64,000 bases of DNA, from assembly GCA_965261395.1 (NCBI GenBank), contig OZ253462.1, positions 896,001-960,000 of the forward strand, written 5' to 3'. The notes below the pieces were generated by a model. The model did not search any database. It had not been told where the DNA came from and worked only from the letters and a program-made list of their open reading frames with translations. Shown one piece after another: positions 2,324 to 56,687 of this stretch (its first letter is position 1; every line of letters starts with the position of its first letter). The DNA comes from Candidatus Latescibacterota bacterium. Its GTDB lineage: Bacteria > Latescibacterota > UBA2968 > UBA8231. Position numbers and translations under genes: made by a program.

Positions 2324-3154
2324 ATGTATGCTCACTATCCCCGATTCTCCCAGATTCTCCGCGTAGCCCTACCTGCTCTCCTGCTGGCCCACTTCGTGGT
2401 TTGGCCCGTCGTCGGTCTTTTGTCCCTACATGCTGGTATTATTGCCGCCGAATGTACCATTCTGTGGTTTGTGGCCCTTTATATCCGTCGTCACCACTTA
2501 ATCGCCGAAGATCTTCTTCTGTTCAACGCCGCGCCAGCTAGGACCTTGTTGCTGACAATCCCGGTGACTATTTGCTGTAGCCTCGTAGTCGCCGAATTCG
2601 ACTTGTATCTGGCCTATCTTCTCGGCCGGATAGACCTATCTATGCCGTTACCCTTTCAGAAAAACCTGCTGGAGATTCAGATTCTCCGCGGACTGACGGA
2701 CGTCCCGAAGGGACTGGTAACGCTAGTGCTAGCCCCTGTGCTTTGCGAGGAGCCTCTCTTCCGCGGACTTGTACTCACCAGTCTTTACGCCCATCATGGG
2801 CCACGCTGGGCGCTAGGCGGCTCGGCCCTGCTCTTCGCCGTTTCGCACTTCAACCCTTGGCAGCTGATCCCCCTCTTTCTCTTTGGACTCTTCCTCGGTG
2901 CTTTAGTCTACTGGACTCACAGCATCTATCCCGCCATGCTCGCCCACGCGGTCAACAACTTGGCTTCGATAACTGGGATCAACTTGCGCACTTACTTAGG
3001 CATAGATGGCCTAGGCCCCTCCCAACATCTCCCCATGCCCTTGGCCCTGCTCGCCGGCCTAATCCTGCTTGTCGGCCTCCTGATTCTCTGCCGCCAACCC
3101 GCCATTATGCCGCTGCTGACTAAAAGGGAATGCTCTCCGCCCGATTATACTTGA
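2324..3154 (+). CDS. CPBP (CAAX protease/Abi) family intramembrane glutamic endopeptidase
   Basis: Hydrophobic protein with EExxFRG, FAVSH and HAVNN motifs. Confidence 0.88.
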   Translation: MYAHYPRFSQILRVALPALLLAHFVVWPVVGLLSLHAGIIAAECTILWFVALYIRRHHLIAEDLLLFNAAPARTLLLTIPVTICCSLVVAEFDLYLAYLLGRIDLSMPLPFQKNLLEIQILRGLTDVPKGLVTLVLAPVLCEEPLFRGLVLTSLYAHHGPRWALGGSALLFAVSHFNPWQLIPLFLFGLFLGALVYWTHSIYPAMLAHAVNNLASITGINLRTYLGIDGLGPSQHLPMPLALLAGLILLVGLLILCRQPAIMPLLTKRECSPPDYT

Positions 3155-3190
3155 ACTGTTGGAGACACTTGCAGAAAAAACGTTTCCCAA

Positions 3191-4060
3191 TCAACTCAGC
3201 ACCTTCTCCACCGTTTCCCCAATTTCTGCAGGACTCTCACAGATGTGAATCCCCGCTTCCTGCATCGCCGCCATCTTGTCCTCAGCCGTCCCCTTACCAC
3301 CTGAAATAATAGCTCCTGCATGTCCCATCCGCCGCCCCGGAGGTGCCGTTCGCCCCGCAGTAAAGCCAATAACGGGCTTGTCGTAGCATTCTTTGATATA
3401 GGCGGCCGCTTCTTCTTCAGCCGTGCCGCCGATCTCGCCGATCATCACTACTGCATCGGTCTCGGGATCGTCCTTAAAGAGTGCCAGCGCGTCCACGAAG
3501 CGCGTACCAATGATGGGGTCGCCGCCAATGCCGATGGCTGTAGACTGGCCTAGGCCCCGCTCAGTAAGCTGCTCTACGGCTTCATAGGTCAGCGTTCCAC
3601 TGCGCGAGATAATGCCCACTCGACCTGGCTGGTGAATAAAGTCGGGCATAATGCCGGTCTTGCACTTCCCCGGCGAGATGATGCCAGGACAATTAGGCCC
3701 GATCAGCCGAGTAGAGCGCGCCTGTACATAATGGTAGGCTTTAACCATGTCGCCCACGGGAATATTTTCGCTGATACAGATGACTAGCTCTATGCCAACA
3801 TCGGCCGCTTCCATGATCGCGTCGGCGGCAAAGGGGGCTGGCACAAAAATGATCGAAGCATTGGCACCGGAGGCCTCGACGCCTTCGGCGACCGTGTTAA
3901 ACACTGGAACTCCTTCAAATTCTTGGCCCCCTTTGCCTGGTGTTGCTCCTCCGACCACTTTCGTGCCGTACTCCAACATTTGGCGAGTGTGAAAAGATCC
4001 CTCCGACCCAGTAATTGCCTGTACGAAGACCTTGGTGTTTTCGTCGATTAAAACGCTCAT
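3191..4060 (-). CDS. sucD: Succinyl-CoA synthetase alpha subunit
   Basis: [11 protein letters not shown] start at 4060; [23 protein letters not shown] (phospho-His). Confidence 0.97.
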
Positions 4061-16680: not shown

Positions 16681-18075
16681 ATGGCACTGAAAATACAAGA
16701 TCCCCAAGAACTATGGGCTCAATGTTTGCTCAATATCGAGCGTCAGGTTCGTCCTCAGAGTTTTGCTAATTGGTTTCTCCAGACTTCAGTAAACCACTTC
16801 GACGAAGACTCGTTGGTTATCCAAGTTCCCAGTGCATTTTCTGCCGCTTGGGTAGAGGAGCACTACTTGAAGATGATCCAATCAGTAGTGCGGGAAGAGA
16901 CGGCGCTTACTCCAAAGATCTCCTTTATCGTTGCACAAGCACCTCAACCAATTCTCGATCCAGTGATCCCTATTAAGCAGGGTCTATCTGCGAACGAAGG
17001 AGAACCCCCAGAAGATGAACAAAAAGAAATAGAAGCCGGCTCTGCCCAAACATCGCTCAACAAGCGCTATACCTTTGAAGAATTCATCGTTGGTGATAAC
17101 AATCGATTTGCCCATGCAACAGCATTGGCCGTAGCCAATGCCCCGGGTAAGACGCAATTTAATCCCCTCGTGATCTATGGAGGCGTAGGGCTAGGTAAAA
17201 CGCATCTGCTCCAAGCGATTGGGCATCACGCCTATAACCTCAACCTCGCCGAGAAAGTCGTTTACGTCCCCTCGGAAAAGTTTATGAGCGATTTCATCAA
17301 CTCGCTCCGAGACCGCAATACTAGTGAATTTCAGAACTTTTATCGCAGTGTGGACATCCTCCTCGTCGACGACATCCAGTTTATGCTCCGCGGCGAACAG
17401 ACCCAAAATGAGTTCTTTCACACCTTTAATGCCTTGCATCAGTCCGAGAAGCAGATTGTCATGACCTGCGACAGTGCTCCCGGCCATCTTTATGGATTAG
17501 AAGAAAGGCTGAAATCCCGCTTCATATGGGGGCTGGCTACCGCAATAGATCTGCCCGAACTCGAGACCCGGATTGCCATCCTTCACAAGAAGGCCGAGCG
17601 CAACGGCATGCGGATTCCCGATGATGTGGCAGCCCTGTTGGGCAATCATATCCGATCGAATGTACGCGAACTCGAAGGTACTTTGATTAGCTTGATGGCC
17701 TACTGCTCAATCCATAAGAAGGAACTCGACATAGAGGCGGCCAAGCATATTATACAAGAAAAGGGCCCTAGCCTAGCGGAACTGAGCATTGAATCGATCC
17801 AACAGCACGTCGCCGACCACTTCAATCTGACACAGGGGCAGCTCACCGGAAAAGGACGCACGCAAGACGTTGTAGCAGCACGGCACCTTGCTATGTTCCT
17901 AGTCAAGCGTCTGATCGGCAGTCCTTTCACTACCATCGGCCTACACTTCGGCAACCGTGACCACAGCTCAATCATCCACGCTGTACGCACTATTGAGAAG
18001 AAGTGTAAAAACGATCCCGCCTTCGCCAAACTAGCTGAGGATTTGTCCAATACCATCCGTCGGCAAAACCACTAA
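16681..18075 (+). CDS. dnaA: Chromosomal replication initiator DnaA
   Basis: YTFEEFIVG, GGVGLGKTHL, LLVDDIQF, NVRELEG, RDHSSIIHA. Confidence 0.98.
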   Translation: MALKIQDPQELWAQCLLNIERQVRPQSFANWFLQTSVNHFDEDSLVIQVPSAFSAAWVEEHYLKMIQSVVREETALTPKISFIVAQAPQPILDPVIPIKQGLSANEGEPPEDEQKEIEAGSAQTSLNKRYTFEEFIVGDNNRFAHATALAVANAPGKTQFNPLVIYGGVGLGKTHLLQAIGHHAYNLNLAEKVVYVPSEKFMSDFINSLRDRNTSEFQNFYRSVDILLVDDIQFMLRGEQTQNEFFHTFNALHQSEKQIVMTCDSAPGHLYGLEERLKSRFIWGLATAIDLPELETRIAILHKKAERNGMRIPDDVAALLGNHIRSNVRELEGTLISLMAYCSIHKKELDIEAAKHIIQEKGPSLAELSIESIQQHVADHFNLTQGQLTGKGRTQDVVAARHLAMFLVKRLIGSPFTTIGLHFGNRDHSSIIHAVRTIEKKCKNDPAFAKLAEDLSNTIRRQNH

Positions 18076-18639
18076 GCCCCAAGTTCAACCCCCATCTCTT
18101 AGGCCTCTTAGTCTGTATTTTTCAGTACCATGGTGCCTATTTGGCAGTGGAAAACTATTAACACCTGTCCCGCCTAAGTATTGATTCGGTGTGGATAAGT
18201 CTGTGAAAAAAAGAAAAAAATCTTTTTCAACCTTTTGTCTGTGAAAAATTCGAGTTTTCCACTCCACAATCCACAGATTAGCTCTTGTTGCCAAGTCGCC
18301 CCTCTTATTTATAAACATCTTATTAACAATATGTTCCGTTGTTTGTAGATTTAGCTCTAAGACAGTTATCCACATATCCACGGCACAACTAGAACTTCAA
18401 AAATAAAAGAACACAAAGAAGTGTAGTATTATTAGAAGCACGGATGTGGATTTCTATTTTCCCAGAATACACATCTTTCTAATTTTTTTATATACACATA
18501 CACATATGTTCCATCTTTTGCTAAATATGGGACACTATATATATAGAATTTGACATGGGTGGGCATAGAAGTTAACTTTGGTCTAAGTGTTTTAAGAACA
18601 AATGTTTTTCAGAAGTCAGAAGGATAACCGAGAAGCTGT
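18076..18639. other. Replication origin oriC
   Basis: AT-rich dnaA-dnaN intergenic region; perfect DnaA boxes TGTGGATAA (18190) and TTATCCACA (18366), many 1-2 mismatch boxes, DnaA-trio-like repeats; gene orientation flips at rpmH/dnaA. Confidence 0.9.
18550..18578 (+). promoter_or_regulatory. Sigma70-type promoter of dnaN
   Basis: TTGACA-17 nt-TAACTT. Confidence 0.6.
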
Positions 18640-19803
18640 ATGAAGTTGAGAGTAGATCGCAATGAGTTGTGGAAGGGCATTGATACTGTATTAGAAGCCG
18701 TGTCTTCAAAGCCCTCCCTGCCGGTGTTGGCTAATATCCTGCTTGAAGCCGATGAAAAAACCCTATCTCTATCTGCGACGGATTTAGATTTGTCCATCCG
18801 GACTCAAGTCCCTGCTATAGTAGAAGAGGAAGGGATGACGACTGTTTCGGCGCGCAAGCTGGCAGAAATCACCCGAGAATGGCCTGAGGCGGAACTGAGT
18901 ATTGAGGTGCAGGACGAGCGACTCAAGCTCTCAGGGCGGCTCGGGGACGCCGAAAGAAGCGAAGGAGCCTATAGCCTGTCGGGAATAGAGGCTGAAGAAT
19001 TTCCCAATATGCCGACAGCACTTGACGGCGTAAGCCTGAGCTTGGGCGAGGACGAAGCCGAGACCCATGTTCTGGTAGGCATGATCAATAAGACGGCCTT
19101 TGCCGTCTCCGGGGATGATACGCGACCCGTATTCAACGGGGTACTCTGGCGCATCGATGCCCAAGGAATGGTGATGGTGGCTACCGACGGGTCGCGCTTA
19201 GCCTGTTACAGATTGGCCATAGATTTGCAGGATCAGGTACAGGGCGACCAAGAAACTGCGGTCATCGTCCCCCCCAAAGCGTTGATCCAAATCGTCAAAT
19301 TGCTGGGTAGCCATAAAGGTCCAGTCAAGATCACGCTAGGCGAGACGCAGATACTGTTTGATATAGGACATACGCACTTGCTGTCGCGTCTGATTGAGGG
19401 ACCTTATGTCAACTATTCCCAAGTCATTCCTCAAAACAACCAAAAAGAACTAAGAATAACTAGAGAAGCTCTTCTGCCGGCCGTACGCCGGGTATCTATC
19501 CTCTCCAGTTCCTATACGCGTCAAGTGCGTTTTAAGCTAAACAGTGGCCAGGTGGAGCTATCAGCCGCCAGCCCCGAAATCGGTGGCGAAGCGAGGGAGG
19601 TCGTGCCGGCCCAATACGACTCTGAAGAGATAGAGGTTGGCTACAACGCCCAATATCTGATGGAGATCCTGCGCAGAATGGACGCGCCCGAGGTCTGTTT
19701 CCAGCTCAATGACCACGTCACAGCAGCCCTGTTGCGGCCGACGGAACAAAAGGAAGGCGAGGACTACTTCTGCTTGCTAATGCCCTTGCGGCCGACAGGA
19801 TGA
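18640..19803 (+). CDS. dnaN: DNA polymerase III beta clamp
   Basis: PVLANILL, ATDLDL, TRPVFNG, VATDGSRLA, SRLIEG, LLMPLR. Confidence 0.97.
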   Translation: MKLRVDRNELWKGIDTVLEAVSSKPSLPVLANILLEADEKTLSLSATDLDLSIRTQVPAIVEEEGMTTVSARKLAEITREWPEAELSIEVQDERLKLSGRLGDAERSEGAYSLSGIEAEEFPNMPTALDGVSLSLGEDEAETHVLVGMINKTAFAVSGDDTRPVFNGVLWRIDAQGMVMVATDGSRLACYRLAIDLQDQVQGDQETAVIVPPKALIQIVKLLGSHKGPVKITLGETQILFDIGHTHLLSRLIEGPYVNYSQVIPQNNQKELRITREALLPAVRRVSILSSSYTRQVRFKLNSGQVELSAASPEIGGEAREVVPAQYDSEEIEVGYNAQYLMEILRRMDAPEVCFQLNDHVTAALLRPTEQKEGEDYFCLLMPLRPTG

Positions 19804-20859
19804 GGTAAGCAGGCCTAGTGCGGATCCGTGAATTAACGCTGAGACCCTTCCGCAATTTTGCCGCGATTCGCTTGAGCTTTGCAGCAGATCACGTGCTGAT
19901 TTTTGGTCCAAACGGCCGCGGTAAAAGCAATATCATAGAAGCGATTTCCTACCTATCTATCGGTAAGTCAGTGCGCGGGGCCAAGGATCAACACGTCGTG
20001 CCGCACGGCGAGGACTTTTTTGATATCCGGGCCTTGTGTACTGACGGTCGCCACGACCAGCAATTACGCGTCTTTTACAGTAAGAAAGAAGGCAAGAAGG
20101 CATTTGCTGATGCCAGTCCCTTGCCCCGAGTATCGGAGTTACTAGGCACCTTCCGCACCGTTCACTTCTCTCCTGAAGACGTATCGCTGGTACTGCGCTT
20201 CCCGGCCCAGCGAAGGCGGCTCCTCGACATACTTATCTCGCAGTCTAGCGCAGCATACTTGCGATATATGCAGCGCTATTACCGAGTGTTAGCCCAGAGA
20301 AACCACTTGTTGCGCACCGCAAAAAAGTCGAGGCACGGGCTTGTCGATAGTCAAGTAATGGAACCGTGGAATGCCCAGCTAGTAGATTTGGGTGCCCAAC
20401 TCCGACTCCATCGCTTGGACGCGCTGAATACGTTGAGGGCGCCCTTTGTCCGCTACTACGGTCGCTTTGTCTTGGCGGGCGAAGAGGCAGCCGTTGTCTA
20501 TCAAGGAGCCAAGGAGCAGGATCTGGAGGCCCTTAGAGCCGAATTGTGCGAAGCACTTAGTCGCCGCAGGGAACAGGAGGCTCAAATAGGATATACGCTC
20601 TGTGGGCCACATCGAGACGATTTGAAATTCACGTTGAACAAAGAACAGGCCGACCTCTATGCTTCCGAGGGGCAGCTAAGAACCGTCCTCATATCTTGGA
20701 AGCTGGCTGAGGCCTGCTACATGGAGGAGCAAACCGGTCGGCAGCCCGTACTGCTCTTAGATGATGCCTTTTCAGAGTTGGACTCTGGCCGGACAGGAGA
20801 ATTATTGGACATCGTTGGTGAATTTGAACAGGTCATAGCGACGACCCCCCAAGAGCCTG

Positions 20860-23210
<2,351 letters not shown>

Positions 23211-53256: not shown

Positions 53257-54588
53257 GTGAAGTATACTCACGAAATTAGAGACCCAATCCATGTGTTCAT
53301 TCGTTTGGACAGCGACGAACGCAAAGTTCTTGATTCCCGTCCGTTCCAGAGACTACGTCATATCCACCAACTGGCAATGACCTATCTTATTTATCCTGGC
53401 GCAACACATAAGCGATTTGAGCATTCGCTCGGCGTTATGGAACTCGCCGGACGGGTCTTCGATGTTGTCACTGATCCAGACAATGGCACGGATGAAATCA
53501 AGCATTTGCTGGGACCGCTCAATGCTCCTGACCAACGAGCGTATTGGCGGCGGGTGGTTCGTATGGCCGCACTCTGCCACGACATTGGCCATCTGCCTTT
53601 CTCGCACGCGGCTGAAAAGGAGCTTCTGCCAGACGACTGGGATCACGAGAATTTGACGCGAGAGATTATTGTTAGCGACGAGATGAAAATGATTTGGGAA
53701 TCTGTCACCCCCCCGCTTCGTCCCGGAGATATCGAAAAACTGGCTATCGGACCGAAGAAGGCGATCAACCTAGAGTTCACAGATTGGGAGACGATCTTGA
53801 CGGAAATCATCGTTGGAGATGCGTTTGGCGTCGACCGCATGGACTATCTGTTACGGGACTCGCATCATGTAGGAGTCGTCTATGGAAAGTTTGACCACCA
53901 CCGGCTGATCGATACTCTGCGCATTTTGCCGCCGGCCCCATCGGGCGAGAATGGGGAATCTCAAGAGCCAGCACTTGGTATGGAAGAGGGCGGCATTCAG
54001 TCAGCGGAAGCGTTGATGCTTGCACGATATTTTATGTACTCGCAGGTTTACTTTCATCCCGTGCGTCGAATTTACAACATTCATCTAACGGATTTTCTCA
54101 AGGAATGGCTCGATCATGGCGCGTTTGCAACGGACTTGGAGAGTCATCTGAAAACGACGGACAGCGAAGTGACTGTTGCTCTACGGGAAGCCGCATTTGA
54201 GGAGGAGAAGGTTGGTCATACATATGCACGCCGGATCGTACTACGCGAGCACTTCAAGTGCCTCTACCGACGGAACCCCCAAGATGTCTCCATCAACCCG
54301 GAGTCAGGAGAATTAGTTTTCAAGGCGTTAGCGGATCAATACGGCGAGGAACACTTCCGTCATGACCGTTATCGTCCAAAAAGCGGTACGCCGGATTTCC
54401 CTGTGCAAATGCGTGACGGCCGGATTATATCGTCCATCACCTTTTCCGAGGTGTTAAGCAACATACCTGTGGTTTCAATCGACTACGTCTTCGCTGATCG
54501 GCAGTGTTTCGCCGAGGCAAATACATGGCTGAACGACAACCATGGTACAATTATCAACGAACCAGAAGAGGAGGAACAAGATGGATAG
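53257..54588 (+). CDS. HD-domain dNTP triphosphohydrolase-like protein (SAMHD1/YwfO type)
   Basis: IRDPIH, FQRLRHIHQL, YPGATHKRFEHSLG, HDIGHLPFSH, HE, DRMDYLLRD, MYSQVYFH. Confidence 0.9.
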   Translation: MKYTHEIRDPIHVFIRLDSDERKVLDSRPFQRLRHIHQLAMTYLIYPGATHKRFEHSLGVMELAGRVFDVVTDPDNGTDEIKHLLGPLNAPDQRAYWRRVVRMAALCHDIGHLPFSHAAEKELLPDDWDHENLTREIIVSDEMKMIWESVTPPLRPGDIEKLAIGPKKAINLEFTDWETILTEIIVGDAFGVDRMDYLLRDSHHVGVVYGKFDHHRLIDTLRILPPAPSGENGESQEPALGMEEGGIQSAEALMLARYFMYSQVYFHPVRRIYNIHLTDFLKEWLDHGAFATDLESHLKTTDSEVTVALREAAFEEEKVGHTYARRIVLREHFKCLYRRNPQDVSINPESGELVFKALADQYGEEHFRHDRYRPKSGTPDFPVQMRDGRIISSITFSEVLSNIPVVSIDYVFADRQCFAEANTWLNDNHGTIINEPEEEEQDG

Positions 54589-55138
54589 AATGCAAAGGGC
54601 CGGGCTATTGACGCGACTGATAGAGGAGCTTCGCGAAAAGGGAAGCTGGTGCGGCGAGACGCATGTTCAGAAAGCCACGTTTTTTGCGCAGGAGCTCGCC
54701 GAAATTCCGCTGGGCTTCAATTTTATCCTGTACAAGCATGGACCGTTCTCGTTCGACTTGAGAGATGAACTCACTGCTCTACGTGCGGACGGATTATTGG
54801 AGCTTGAAACGCAAGAGTCCTACGGTCCCCGTATCTCCCCTACGCCGCAGAGCGAATACATAAAGAGCCTTTATCCCATGACCTTGGAGAAGTACGGGCC
54901 AGCCGTTGAGTTCGTGACCAACCAGCTCAGCGACAAAGGCGTCATCGAACTCGAGCGTCTTGCAACTGCGTTCTACGTGAGTCTTCCGGCGGAGGAAACC
55001 TCGGTTGATGAAAGATCCACGCGGCTGACGGCTTTGAAACCGCACATATCGCAAAAAGACGCTAAGGACGCGATTCAGGCGATTGACAAGATTGCCAAGG
55101 AAGCCCAAAACACAGTTCTCTCTACTCGCCGAGTTTGA
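54581..55138 (+). CDS. YwgA/DarG-C/Panacea-like winged-helix protein (antitoxin-like)
   Basis: ATG 54581 after GAGGAGG, overlaps the HD stop; HVQKATFF...F.LYKHGPFSFDLRDEL...LERLATAFYV. Confidence 0.7.
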   Translation: MDRMQRAGLLTRLIEELREKGSWCGETHVQKATFFAQELAEIPLGFNFILYKHGPFSFDLRDELTALRADGLLELETQESYGPRISPTPQSEYIKSLYPMTLEKYGPAVEFVTNQLSDKGVIELERLATAFYVSLPAEETSVDERSTRLTALKPHISQKDAKDAIQAIDKIAKEAQNTVLSTRRV

Positions 55139-56243
55139 CGATCAGGTCCTTGCCGAACTTGATGCCGGCGACTCGGCACGCTTCCTGTATTTGGCCCCTT
55201 TTCAGGGACGTAGAACTGTTCGTCCCTAGCCACCACCCGCCGGACAGGGAGACGGCCTGTGTATTGGCTAGCTTGCGATCGTCGGGGTAGAGCGCATACC
55301 GATCGCGTGCGAGGTACTGCCGCGTACGTCCCTTCAAATGCGGTTCCAGTTTCTCGCAGAACTGGGCATCCTTTTCTAAAAGCCGCTCGAAGACGCCCAC
55401 CAACAATTCTTTGCCATTACGGAACCATTCCGTTTGCCCGCGGAAGGTGAACGAAAACTCTTTCCCCTGTCGGCCCTTGAGGAGTTCGGAAACTGCTTGG
55501 GAATGCTCCAGTGTTGGTTCGGTAGGAACCTCAGAAGTCTTCACCCTTTGAGAACGTCTTGGCGATGACTTGGAACCTTGACCCCGAATAAACTCTTCCA
55601 CGCGGAGAAGGTCCGGTCGCACACCACTGGTCCGTTCCACTTCCTCACAGAACCAGTTCTTGAGGACCTCGGGCGGCTCGCGGAGAAGTTCGGCCCATAC
55701 CACCTCGAAGTTCGCAGCCGCTTCGCTCTGCTGTCGGAAAGCGTAGTAGTCGTCATGGGCGCGTCGGTGCGCTTCCCCGGCTCGCACGGTCTCAAAGGCG
55801 AGATAGCGGCTTATTCTCTCGGCACCTTCAGCCGAGTCGTCATCAACTAAGTCCACCGTGGCAAAGCGCCGTTCTTGGTAGCTACCCTGTCCTGCTGGAA
55901 AGAAGAACCCCCAAGAACGCCCGTCGGTCAGCACGGCGAGCGGAACTCCCTGTTTAAAGCAGTAATTAAAGAGCTGCTCTTCGCCTTTTGCGTTTGCATT
56001 GCCTACACCTTTGACCTCGACCAAGACGGACGGCTTGCCGGGCGGATGACAAAGTGCGTAATCGACGCTGAGTCTCTCGATGGGAAACTCGGGAATCACC
56101 ACTTTAGGGTCCCAGACGTTCCAACCCAGTGTATTCAGGAGACGCATCACCACGCTGCGAGAAATTTGAGCTTCGTTGACAAAGTCTCCTCGCGTCAAAC
56201 TGTCGCGAATTTCCTCGATTTGAAGGGTCAGATTTTCCGCCAC
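55122..56243 (-). CDS. HsdR_N-type PD-(D/E)xK nuclease fused to a SeqA-C-like domain
   Basis: GTG after GAGGAG; NE, PEF, VDYAL, VEVK, QLFNY, LTDG; C-terminal DAQ...GRTRQYLARD...WWLGTNSST. Confidence 0.75.
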   Translation of the reverse strand: MAENLTLQIEEIRDSLTRGDFVNEAQISRSVVMRLLNTLGWNVWDPKVVIPEFPIERLSVDYALCHPPGKPSVLVEVKGVGNANAKGEEQLFNYCFKQGVPLAVLTDGRSWGFFFPAGQGSYQERRFATVDLVDDDSAEGAERISRYLAFETVRAGEAHRRAHDDYYAFRQQSEAAANFEVVWAELLREPPEVLKNWFCEEVERTSGVRPDLLRVEEFIRGQGSKSSPRRSQRVKTSEVPTEPTLEHSQAVSELLKGRQGKEFSFTFRGQTEWFRNGKELLVGVFERLLEKDAQFCEKLEPHLKGRTRQYLARDRYALYPDDRKLANTQAVSLSGGWWLGTNSSTSLKRGQIQEACRVAGIKFGKDLIVKLGE

Positions 56244-56687
56244 GGTATCTCCTCTTCAATTGAAAAACGTTCGGATTGTCCTAGTGATTGCCTAGCCCTC
56301 GGACCGCATGAGAATAGATTATTGTAAATTGGGTCTCAAAGTCTAGCAACGTCCCCTTTAGAAGCAGCAACGAACACAGCACCGCCTCGTCGAGCGGATC
56401 AACCCCCGCAAAAGCGCGGGAATAAGTCGCGGCGATGGAGTGCCTAATTAGCCGTAGTGTCCCGCAGAATTTTTACAAGGAGTTAGCGAGCGCCGTGGCG
56501 CTTGAAGCCCAGCGAGGAGGCAGGCGTAGCGGCACGAGTGGCGACATGGGCGGTGGTGGTCCGCGAGGGGTGGAGACGGTCCGCAGGGTGGCGGGTTTTA
56601 GGACCACGCTACCAGTCCAACAGCAAGACGGTCCAGCAGCGCGCCGAGCGAAAGGCCCAGTGGTAATCGGCCGAGGCTAGGGCGTGT

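What the first reader, a model, noticed from the sequence alone, without database searches (positions are those of the whole stretch)
55122..56243. Restriction-type nuclease fused to a SeqA-like methyl-adenine reader
Seen: an N-terminal HsdR_N/PD-(D/E)xK domain (D in VDYAL, EVK, QxxxY, LTDG), a low-complexity linker, then about 110 aa (about 55125-55460) reading LLEKDAQFCEKLEPHLKGRTRQYLARD...GGWWLGTNSSTSLK. As I recall it, E. coli SeqA-C reads LYSLDAQAFAEATESLHGRTRVYFAAD...PYWVITNTNTGRK. Known: SeqA-C binds hemimethylated GATC through the TNTN loop. Here that loop is TNSS, no methylase is adjacent, and oriC has no GATC, so origin sequestration is unlikely. Inference: a type IV-like nuclease that uses a SeqA fold to recognise modified adenine in foreign DNA, perhaps with altered specificity.
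Basis: partly seen in the sequence, partly recalled or inferred. Interest (0 to 1): 0.8.

Follow-up and report, generated by a model that had tools for sequence, protein, structure and literature searches.

The report
Solitary nuclease with SeqA-like DNA reader
This gene encodes a DNA-cutting enzyme joined by a flexible linker to a domain folded like SeqA, the protein that recognises methylated GATC sites in E. coli, so it is most likely an uncharacterised defence nuclease that cuts foreign DNA carrying methylated adenine.

Summary
Window 55122-56243 (-) encodes a 373-aa protein. It has an N-terminal HSDR_N-type PD-(D/E)xK nuclease with D61, E76-x-K78 and Q90xxxY94, and a helical region predicted to dimerise. 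A disordered linker (227-259) leads to a C-terminal domain that matches Pfam SeqA just over threshold. That domain's model matches only SeqA structures in the PDB (TM 0.61-0.67, rmsd 2.0-2.7 Å). Four of SeqA's five GATC-contact residues are kept; N152 is Ser.

The family is large (464 clusters at E<=1e-30), spans many phyla and is patchy even within the host genus. It is sometimes broken and has no conserved neighbour or adjacent DNA methylase. Some members carry 2-5 tandem reader domains. Close relatives carry DUF4268 instead, a domain linked in print to type IV restriction enzymes.

The best reading (about 0.55) is a modification-dependent (type IV/IIM-like) restriction nuclease that reads methylated adenine. 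The target sequence and the methylation dependence are untested. Nine of 51 host genomes carry a Dam-family methylase, which argues against a simple Gm6ATC target. IMG already names fragments "predicted type IV restriction endonuclease". I rate it a new variant of a known kind, of moderate interest.

The parts
55122..56243 (-). Whole gene, 373 codons plus stop (stop codon at 55122-55124); GTG start at 56243
   Evidence: ORF list and translation. Full-length relatives at 35-92% identity.
55839..56243 (-). Residues 1-135: N-terminal PD-(D/E)xK nuclease domain of the HSDR_N type. Catalytic D61 (56061-56063), E76-V-K78 (56010-56018), Q90xxxY94, T106-D107-G108.
   Evidence: Pfam HSDR_N at 29.3 bits over its cut-off. 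Motif residues invariant in 24 sequences. Foldseek hits to the nuclease domains of DrdV 7lvv_C (E 8.6e-3), BpuSI 3s1s and HsdR fragment 3h1t.
55566..55835 (-). Residues 137-226: conserved helical region, predicted homodimer interface (residues 171-222)
   Evidence: AF2 helices 137-225 at pLDDT 88-98. Homodimer prediction ipSAE 0.42 against a best control of 0.00, with a symmetric interface at 171-222. This region is conserved together with the nuclease domain in all 265 retrieved relatives.
55467..55565 (-). Residues 227-259: low-complexity, disordered linker
   Evidence: pLDDT below 50 over 227-259. Length and sequence vary in alignment A1.
55125..55466 (-). Residues 260-373: SeqA-C-like DNA-reader domain. 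G305-R-T-R308 lies at 55320-55331 and the loop T341-N-S-S-T345 at 55209-55223.
   Evidence: Pfam SeqA at 25.8 bits (cut-off 25.5). The family profile finds SeqA as top PDB hit at E 4.4e-4. The domain model has pLDDT 96.1. Foldseek: 3fmt, 1lrr, 1iu3 and 3sk7 are the only hits below E 1, with TMq 0.61-0.67. The two SeqA DNA-contact segments are among the best-conserved columns in 242 copies.

Best explanation
The gene encodes a solitary, modification-dependent (type IV / type IIM-like) restriction nuclease.

Shown by computation: an N-terminal PD-(D/E)xK nuclease with a complete catalytic motif; a helical region that is predicted to pair two subunits; a flexible linker of about 33 residues; and a C-terminal domain with the SeqA-C fold. 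That domain keeps SeqA's R116/T117/R118/N150 equivalents (R306/T307/R308/N342) but has Ser at the N152 position.

Inferred: the SeqA-like domain docks on duplex DNA that carries N6-methyladenine in a short GATC-like site which the host itself does not make. The dimer holds two such readers, so it may need two marked sites. The tethered nuclease domains then cut nearby, destroying phage or other incoming DNA that is adenine-methylated. The host's own DNA lacks the mark and is spared without any cognate methylase.

The N-terminal nuclease-plus-dimerisation module serves as a chassis. Its C-terminal reader slot has been exchanged in evolution: one SeqA-like domain, 2-5 in tandem, DUF4268, or other domains.
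For: Architecture and fold: (details under the observation check and parts).

Contact residues: SeqA's GATC contacts are R116, T117, R118, N150 and N152 (passage of PMC6225831 citing Fujikawa 2004; N150 and N152 lie in the DNA-binding loop, passage of PMC2691817). In the phmmer alignment they correspond to R306, T307, R308, N342 and S344. Among 242 domain copies the counts at these positions are G305 199, R306 156 (K 31), R308 195, G336 228, W337 225, T341 189, N342 122 (H 81) and S344 169. The SeqA DNA-contact surface is therefore what the family conserves.

No partner: in 78 loci from many phyla no neighbour cluster recurs in more than 4 loci. Pfam tallies of the 73 upstream and 72 downstream immediate neighbours show at most 3 members per family. 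No DNA methyltransferase appears among the 25 commonest families shown in each tally.

Host lacks Dam: the only full-length D12 methylase in the own genome scores 56.3 bits against a TIGR00571 cut-off of 114.85, and no E. coli or T4 Dam structure is among its PDB hits. GATC is not avoided in the genome (34842 sites, observed/expected 0.925), so the enzyme cannot be cutting unmodified GATC.

Accessory behaviour: 219 confirmed relatives across Latescibacterota, Gemmatimonadota, Acidobacteriota, Chloroflexota, Proteobacteria and others. Sixteen of 168 genomes of the phylum have a full-length match. Only 4 of 30 other genomes of the genus carry the ortholog, and one of those is broken by a stop and a frameshift. 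The gene sits in a stretch of lower G+C (0.54-0.56 against about 0.60).

Reader-slot exchange: of 265 retrieved relatives, 226 have the SeqA-like domain (213 once, 12 twice, 1 five times). The other 39 have only the N-module, most with a different C-terminus. Eight of the 120 listed carry DUF4268 and are 52-56% identical to this protein over the N-module. DUF4268 is reported as most often associated with the GmrSD type IV enzymes (passage of PMC4619093). It is also proposed as the substrate-recognition part of MdgA and MdgB, nucleases shown by experiment to be modification-dependent antiphage nucleases (passages of PMC12366544).

Dimer: ipSAE 0.42 against a best of three controls of 0.00. That mark was reached by 20 of 30 proteins solved as pairs of one chain and by 1 of 23 solved as single chains. 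The runs agree in at least 43% of contacts and the partner's pLDDT is at least 76. My own alignment was used, so these counts hold only roughly.

Database names: IMG names 11 of the 120 listed short proteins that match the C-domain profile 'predicted type IV restriction endonuclease'.
Against: Nothing here tests cleavage or methyl dependence.

The SeqA Pfam score is only 0.3 bits over the cut-off, and only 5 of 120 listed relatives carry a precomputed PF03925 hit. N152, one of SeqA's two key loop residues, is Ser here and in most of the family, so the mark or the sequence that is read may differ from SeqA's.

SeqA prefers hemimethylated DNA over fully methylated DNA (passage of PMC12707154), and hemimethylated is not the state of freshly injected DNA.

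Nine of 51 host genomes have a Dam-family match over the TIGR00571 cut-off, 8 of them with an intact nuclease gene. The loop motifs do not separate hosts with and without such a methylase. D12-class hits over cut-off occur in 26 of 50 hosts.

Immediate neighbours are mostly housekeeping genes rather than defence genes. No full-length relative was found in 72,556 plasmid or 50,697 phage records. PADLOC has no model that matches beyond a weak hit at E 0.0078 to a type I methylase model.

AF2 may lean on SeqA structures it was trained on.
Confidence: 0.55

Rival explanations
1. Hemimethylation-specific restriction. The reader keeps SeqA's preference for DNA methylated on one strand only. The enzyme then attacks foreign Dam-type-methylated DNA after its first round of replication in a non-methylating host, or the replication intermediates of phages that bring their own methylase.
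For: SeqA binds hemimethylated but not fully methylated or unmethylated sites. Methylated DNA that enters a Dam-deficient host becomes permanently hemimethylated after one replication (passage of PMC12707154). Four of the five SeqA contact residues are identical. The predicted dimer and the tandem arrays of 2-5 readers recall SeqA's need for paired sites (PMC2691817). The own genome lacks a Dam-family enzyme over cut-off.
Against: The methyl-sensing loop differs (N152 is Ser). Nine of 51 hosts carry Dam-family methylases, and in those hosts every replication fork would be a target. No experiment exists.
Confidence: 0.15
2. A modification-independent nuclease. The SeqA-like domain is simply a sequence- or structure-specific DNA-binding module. 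The protein would then be a selfish or homing-type nuclease, a repair or recombination nuclease, or an effector switched on by some other signal.
For: The fold alone does not prove methyl reading. The N152 equivalent is changed. Neighbours are mostly housekeeping genes. Hosts with Dam-family enzymes tolerate the gene.
Against: An always-active sequence-specific nuclease with no methylase would be lethal unless its site were absent from the host. GATC is not avoided in this genome. The family conserves exactly the SeqA contact segments. The alternative C-terminal domain DUF4268 is tied in print to modification-dependent enzymes. No conserved partner could regulate it.
Confidence: 0.17
3. The restriction half of a dispersed classical R-M system. 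It would cut unmethylated sites while a methylase encoded elsewhere protects the host.
For: The nuclease domain is of the type used by type I, IIG and IIL enzymes. NCBI names one relative 'type I restriction endonuclease'. The own genome has one D12 methylase and four long ORFs with weak D12 hits.
Against: There is no helicase or translocase domain and no hsdM/hsdS nearby. No methylase recurs beside the gene in 78 loci. Twenty-four of 50 hosts have no D12 hit over cut-off. SeqA-type domains are not known to bind unmethylated sites.
Confidence: 0.08
4. A housekeeping SeqA or MutH analogue. It would act on the host's own hemimethylated DNA behind the fork, in sequestration or in strand discrimination for mismatch repair.
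For: It is the only SeqA-like domain in the genome. The gene lies 38 kb from dnaA. The ortholog sits at the same site in four Latescibacterota genomes.
Against: Four of 30 other genomes of the genus have the ortholog, and one of those is broken. The SeqA N-terminal oligomerisation domain is missing, and the NCBIfam SeqA model scores 23 bits against a cut-off of 185. The own genome has no Dam-family enzyme over cut-off. There is no GATC cluster beside dnaA.
Confidence: 0.05

Closest known systems
E. coli SeqA, C-terminal DNA-binding domain (PDB 1lrr, 1iu3, 1j3e, 3fmt; Pfam PF03925)
   Same: Same fold: TMq 0.66-0.67, rmsd 2.0-2.2 Å over 89-90 columns, 22% identity. The GRTR segment is identical and the N150 equivalent is kept.
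   Different: There is no SeqA N-terminal oligomerisation domain; a nuclease and a different helical dimer module stand in its place. N152 is Ser. The host has no Dam-family methylase over cut-off. The gene is patchy and dispensable.
DpnI (type IIM, Gm6ATC-dependent), recalled from my own knowledge
   Same: It is a solitary enzyme with an N-terminal PD-(D/E)xK catalytic domain and a C-terminal methyl-adenine reader, and it has no methylase partner. This is the proposed working analogue.
   Different: DpnI's reader is a winged helix, not a SeqA fold. No DpnI structure appeared among the Foldseek hits. Membership is therefore not claimed.
MdgA / MdgB modification-dependent antiphage nucleases with DUF4268 (Cell Host Microbe 2025, PMC12366544; passages read)
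   Same: Single-gene nucleases with a putative C-terminal substrate-recognition domain. MdgA's catalytic residue is E77. In relatives of this protein that carry DUF4268 the catalytic Glu of E-V-K sits at position 78, 95 or 132, and in this protein at 76.
   Different: I could not see MdgA's sequence (Table S7; supplements are closed), so homology of its nuclease module to this one is a lead and not a result.
RAMA-SeqA fusions noted by Iyer, Zhang and Aravind (BioEssays 2016, PMC4738411; passages read)
   Same: The SeqA domain is recognised there as a hemimethylated-m6A reader that occurs in restriction-related multidomain proteins.
   Different: The text describes SeqA fused to the RAMA domain, not directly to an HSDR_N nuclease. 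The figure and the supporting information were not visible to me.
N-terminal nuclease domains of HsdR (3h1t, 2w00) and of type IIG/IIL enzymes (BpuSI 3s1s, DrdV 7lvv/7lo5)
   Same: Closest structural matches of residues 1-135, with the same D...ExK...QxxxY motif set.
   Different: There is no motor, methylase or specificity domain, and the protein is only 373 aa long.

Membership tests
SeqA protein (replication sequestration factor) | C-terminal DNA-binding domain with the SeqA-C fold | tested here: met
   Pfam PF03925 at 25.8 bits against a cut-off of 25.5. The profile finds SeqA at E 4.4e-4. Foldseek returns only SeqA entries below E 1.
SeqA protein (replication sequestration factor) | N-terminal oligomerisation domain and a full-length match to SeqA | tested here: not met
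   NCBIfam SeqA equivalog scores 23 bits against a cut-off of 185 and matches only residues 288-356. The N-terminus is a nuclease.
SeqA protein (replication sequestration factor) | GATC-contact residues R116, T117, R118, N150 and N152 | tested here: inconclusive
   Four of five are identical and N152 is Ser. The family consensus is R, x, R, N/H, S.
SeqA protein (replication sequestration factor) | Occurs together with Dam and with GATC clusters at the origin | tested here: not met
   The own genome's best Dam-family score is 55-56 bits against a cut-off of 114.85. There are 0 and 3 GATC in the two spacers flanking dnaA.
SeqA protein (replication sequestration factor) | Binds hemimethylated GATC | not testable with these tools
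   This needs gel-shift or footprinting experiments.
Type IV / modification-dependent restriction endonuclease | Nuclease domain with an intact catalytic motif | tested here: met
   D61, E76, K78, Q90 and Y94 are invariant in 24 sequences. HSDR_N scores over its cut-off.
Type IV / modification-dependent restriction endonuclease | No cognate methyltransferase | tested here: met
   The window neighbours are not DNA methylases. No neighbour cluster recurs in more than 4 of 78 loci. No DNA methylase appears among the 25 commonest families shown for 73 upstream and 72 downstream neighbours. Families carried by a single member beyond the 25 shown were not visible to me.
Type IV / modification-dependent restriction endonuclease | A domain that reads a modified base | tested here: inconclusive
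   The domain has the fold of a known m6A reader, but whether it reads a methyl group could not be tested.
Type IV / modification-dependent restriction endonuclease | Cleaves modified DNA only and protects against phages with modified DNA | not testable with these tools
   This needs in vitro cleavage assays and plaque assays.
Type I restriction enzyme R subunit (HsdR) | SF2 helicase/translocase domains and hsdM/hsdS partners | tested here: not met
   The protein is 373 aa with no ResIII or helicase hit. No hsdM or hsdS is nearby. The NCBI name 'type I restriction endonuclease' given to relative P0119 therefore misleads.
MdgA-type (nuclease + DUF4268) defence genes | Homologous nuclease module | not tested
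   MdgA's sequence is in a closed supplement. The only support is that its catalytic Glu (E77) lies near the position of the EVK Glu in this protein (E76) and in its DUF4268-bearing relatives (E78, E95 or E132).

The most novel reading that the evidence does not exclude
The family is a restriction enzyme that senses hemimethylated adenine sites, a DNA state and not just a base. It would kill foreign methylated DNA only once that DNA has replicated in a non-methylating host, or it would attack the replication intermediates of methylase-encoding phages. The dimer, or the tandem arrays of 2-5 readers, would count neighbouring half-methylated sites as SeqA does. Such an enzyme would also be a ready-made reagent for mapping hemimethylated DNA.
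Probability: 0.15. Interest if true: 0.85.

Novelty: new variant of a known kind. Interest (0 to 1): 0.55.

Why it matters
Known adenine-methyl-dependent restriction enzymes are few; DpnI and Mrr are the ones I recall. This family would add a widespread one built on a different reader, the SeqA fold, which so far is known functionally only from replication control in Dam-positive gammaproteobacteria.

The family is large: 464 clusters at 50% identity with E<=1e-30. Its C-terminal slot is exchangeable, so it offers a natural series for learning how reader domains set the specificity of type IV enzymes.

On the sober side, reader-nuclease fusions are an established theme. SeqA domains in restriction-related proteins were noted in 2016, and IMG already labels fragments of the family as predicted type IV endonucleases.

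Tried and rejected

BFVD search with the C-domain model gave no match below E 0.5. The ESM Atlas search with residues 260-373 gave top scores of 0.92 to unnamed clusters, within the range that the tool says shuffled proteins can reach. A named 'SeqA C-terminal domain' cluster scored only 0.86. I treat this as uninformative.

A search for proteins longer than 653 aa that carry the reader domain found none among 56 candidates, which the tool itself calls weak evidence.

I tried to test whether host genomes avoid Dam. D12-class hits over cut-off occur in 26 of 50 hosts and Dam-family TIGR00571 hits over cut-off in 9 of 51. In the tool's control genomes 3 of 14 are over cut-off, so there is no visible depletion. 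Loop motifs do not separate the two groups of hosts. The specificity of these methylases is unknown, so this decides nothing, and I count it as mild evidence against a plain Gm6ATC target.

The longest GATC-free gap in the window (1096 bp, 55301-56397) overlies the gene, but about one such gap is expected by chance at 5 sites per kb. I rejected it as a signal.

Plasmid and phage collections hold only 27-32% identical matches to the nuclease domain and no full-length relative.

Literature: eight searches found no description of an HSDR_N-SeqA fusion enzyme. Their terms were SeqA with restriction endonuclease, fused and domain architecture; SeqA-like with nuclease; SeqA structure terms (twice); modification-dependent restriction with SeqA; type IV restriction with SeqA and N6-methyladenine; DUF4268; and COG4748. 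The library lacks most subscription journals, and supplements are closed: the Supporting Information of PMC4738411 and Table S7 of PMC12366544 may bear on this. Fujikawa 2004 (PMC373283) is not held, so its contact list is quoted second-hand from PMC6225831.

I recall, from no call, that 'predicted type IV restriction endonuclease' is the name of COG4748. The papers read only group COG4748 with HSDR_N and list it among restriction endonucleases.

Full report
**What is there.** Window 55122-56243 (minus strand) is a 373-codon ORF with a GTG start. Relatives begin at the same position.

Pfam finds two domains over their curated cut-offs:
- HSDR_N: 29.3 bits against 25.1, residues 59-113.
- SeqA C-terminal domain: 25.8 bits against 25.5, residues 290-356.

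The NCBIfam SeqA model matches the same C-terminal stretch only, at 23 bits against a cut-off of 185. GRTR aligns with GRTR and TNTNT with TNSST, at a weak E of 0.11. A 46-sequence profile of the C-domain raises SeqA to E 4.4e-4 as the top PDB hit.

**Structure.** An AlphaFold2 model built on 24 relatives has mean pLDDT 88.8 and shows four parts:
- an alpha/beta nuclease core, residues 1-135;
- a helical region, residues 137-226;
- a disordered linker, residues 227-259, with pLDDT below 50;
- a compact C-domain, residues 262-373.

Foldseek with the whole model puts SeqA-DNA complexes first: 1lrr_A at E 1.3e-3, probability 1.00, rmsd 2.0 Å over 89 columns. The nuclease domains of DrdV, BpuSI and an HsdR fragment follow.

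The C-domain folded alone on 46 sequences reaches pLDDT 96.1. It matches only SeqA entries: 3fmt, 1lrr, 1iu3 and 3sk7, at E 2.1e-4 to 3.8e-3 and TMq 0.61-0.67. The next hit is at E 1.6. The caveat is that a predicted model may lean on SeqA structures seen in training.

**Conserved residues.** In 24 aligned relatives D61, E76, K78, Q90, Y94 and T106-D107-G108 are invariant. This is the full PD-(D/E)xK and QxxxY motif set of HsdR-type nuclease domains.

SeqA's contacts to GATC are R116, T117, R118, N150 and N152 (passage of PMC6225831 citing Fujikawa 2004; the N150/N152 loop is also named in PMC2691817). Their equivalents here are R306, T307, R308, N342 and S344.

Over 242 copies of the domain, the most conserved columns include exactly these two segments (the numbering in that output runs one lower):

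| Position | Commonest residue (count of 242) | Other |
|---|---|---|
| G305 | G 199 | |
| R306 | R 156 | K 31 |
| R308 | R 195 | |
| G336 | G 228 | |
| W337 | W 225 | |
| T341 | T 189 | |
| N342 | N 122 | H 81 |
| S344 | S 169 | N 23, D 14 |

The family thus preserves the SeqA DNA-contact face but has replaced N152 by Ser almost throughout.

**The family.** An exhaustive HMMER search finds 3684 cluster representatives at E<=1e-3 and 464 at E<=1e-30. The word-indexed search finds 278 in the 205-653 aa range.

I took a census of all 265 retrieved proteins with HMMs of the two halves:
- 226 have the N-module plus the SeqA-like domain: 213 once, 12 twice and one (P0144, 874 aa) five times.
- 39 have the N-module only, most with another C-terminal extension of 60-240 residues.

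Eight of the 120 listed carry DUF4268 in that slot and are 52-56% identical to this protein over the N-module. That is closer than most SeqA-bearing relatives from other phyla (about 35-50%), so the reader domain has been swapped on a conserved chassis. Single members show winged-helix (PaaX, GntR), DUF5655 and DUF7669 hits.

**Distribution and context.** A scan of one genome per species confirmed 219 relatives. The closest are Latescibacterota MAGs at 92, 80, 74 and 67% identity. Gemmatimonadota, Acidobacteriota, Bacteroidota (Rhodothermales), Chloroflexota, many Proteobacteria and one archaeon follow.

Within the phylum, 48 of 168 genomes have some match at E<=1e-10, but only 16 have a full-length one. 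Within the genus, 4 of 30 other genomes carry the ortholog. In one of those four (L009, which is G180) the gene is broken by a stop and a frameshift.

In 78 loci no neighbouring gene cluster recurs in more than 4. Pfam tallies of 73 upstream and 72 downstream neighbours give at most 3 members per family. No DNA methylase appears among the 25 commonest families shown in each tally, and most neighbours are housekeeping enzymes.

In the window the gene lies in a 3.5-kb stretch of lower G+C between sulfatase genes. It is convergent with an HD-protein / DarG-C-like gene pair that is present in some relatives and absent in others.

No full-length relative is in the plasmid or phage collections.

**Host methylation.** The genome is a single 6.55-Mb contig with G+C 0.593. 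It has 34842 GATC sites, at observed/expected 0.925, so GATC is not avoided.

Its only full-length D12 methylase scores 56 bits against the Dam-family cut-off of 114.85. That methylase does not hit Dam structures and is followed by a ParB-like gene. The nuclease gene holds the only SeqA-like domain in the genome. The two spacers flanking dnaA hold 3 and 0 GATC.

Among 51 host genomes, 9 have a Dam-family match over cut-off, and loop motifs do not track this. This is the main computational point against a simple Gm6ATC target.

**Oligomer.** A two-copy prediction just reaches the tool's mark. The ipSAE is 0.42 against a best of three controls of 0.00. That mark was reached by 20 of 30 proteins solved as pairs of one chain and by 1 of 23 solved as single chains. 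The runs agree in at least 43% of contacts and the partner's pLDDT is at least 76. My own alignment was used, so these counts hold only roughly. The interface is symmetric and confined to helices 171-222. This supports, but does not show, a dimer with two nuclease heads and two tethered readers.

**Interpretation.** The most likely function is a solitary modification-dependent restriction nuclease. The SeqA-like domain would recognise adenine-methylated sites that the host does not make, and the tethered PD-(D/E)xK dimer would cut nearby.

The print record on the sister architecture supports this:
- DUF4268 is reported as most often associated with GmrSD type IV enzymes (PMC4619093, passage).
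- It is proposed as the recognition part of MdgA and MdgB, which were shown by plaque assays, and for MdgA in vitro, to be modification-dependent (PMC12366544, passages).
- MdgA's catalytic residue E77 lies next to the position of the EVK glutamate in this protein (E76); in its DUF4268-bearing relatives that glutamate sits at position 78, 95 or 132.

I could not see MdgA's sequence, so the MdgA link remains a lead.

The architecture, the fold, the conserved residues, the lack of a partner and the patchiness are shown. Methyl reading, the target sequence, the cut position and the defence role are inferred.

**Comparison with what is known.** The protein is not SeqA: it lacks the oligomerisation domain, fails the full-length model and has no Dam context. 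It is not an HsdR: it has no motor and no hsdM/hsdS partners.

It would work like DpnI, a solitary Gm6ATC-dependent enzyme with an N-terminal nuclease and a C-terminal reader (recalled), but with a different reader fold. SeqA domains fused to the RAMA domain in restriction-related proteins were noted by Iyer et al. (PMC4738411, passages).

IMG names 11 of the 120 listed short proteins that match the C-domain 'predicted type IV restriction endonuclease' and 2 'negative regulator of replication initiation'. My eight literature searches found no description or experiment on this fusion. I therefore class it as a new variant of a known kind.

**Verdict.** Interest is 0.55: a large, uncharacterised and readily testable family with a new reader for a known type of defence. 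Its boldest open reading is restriction specific to hemimethylated DNA.

Noticed in passing
window 53257-55138 (+): Two overlapping genes lie convergent with the nuclease gene, and their 3' end overlaps its 3' end by 17 bp (55122-55138). The first is a 443-aa HD-domain, dGTPase-like protein (HD_assoc_2 4.3e-15; PADLOC dGTPase 4e-9). The second is a 198-aa protein resembling the C-terminal, toxin-binding half of antitoxin DarG (PADLOC DarG 4.6e-10; NCBIfam 1.4e-7, far below cut-off). The pair is present in the window, L008 and L009; only the HD gene was called in L006; both are absent in L007. It may be a separate toxin-antitoxin-like or defence module.
   Followed up: partly
window 16681-20906: ORFs of 464, 387 and 362 aa lie here. 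The first holds the genome's only DnaA (PF00308) match. I take the next two to be dnaN and recF from their order alone and did not test this. The region 8-20 kb has lower G+C (about 0.50). The chromosome origin probably lies in this window. There is no GATC cluster: 3 sites in the 816-bp spacer upstream of dnaA and 0 in the 564-bp spacer after it.
   Followed up: partly
L001 (own genome C1:2431621-2435355), ORFs 1432-2364 and 2377-3480: The genome's only full-length D12 adenine methylase is below the Dam-family cut-off (56.3 against 114.85 bits). It is followed 12 bp later by a 367-aa protein with a weak ParB-like N-terminal hit (E 2.9e-6). This may be a methylase plus ParB-nuclease pair of a mobile element.
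   Followed up: partly
proteins P0021, P0122, P0128, P0129, P0136, P0148, P0176, P0182, P0194, P0200, P0221, P0244 and P0144: Family members with two tandem SeqA-like domains, and one with five (P0144, 874 aa), follow a single nuclease module. This suggests multi-site reading.
   Followed up: partly
L009:5995-7113 and genome G153: These are decayed copies. L009 has an in-frame stop after residue 205 and a later frameshift. The G153 copy has one in-frame TGA. The genome holding L009 also has a strong Dam-family methylase at 174 bits. This is a single case and not a test.
   Followed up: partly
BFVD entry A0A2H4UTP0 (Bodo saltans virus methyltransferase, 469 aa): It gives a weak structural match to the SeqA-like domain model over 110 columns (E 0.79, probability 0.63, TMq 0.57, rmsd 3.2 Å). 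A giant-virus methylase may carry a SeqA-like module.
   Followed up: no
same-genus genomes (for example G169, G190, G191, G179, G183): Many Latescibacterota genomes hold paralogues that share only the nuclease-plus-helical module (query residues about 9-225, 28-41% identity) with other C-termini. The chassis has diversified within the phylum.
   Followed up: no
window 55301-56397: The longest GATC-free stretch of the window (1096 bp) covers most of the nuclease gene. About one such gap is expected by chance at 5 sites per kb.
   Followed up: yes
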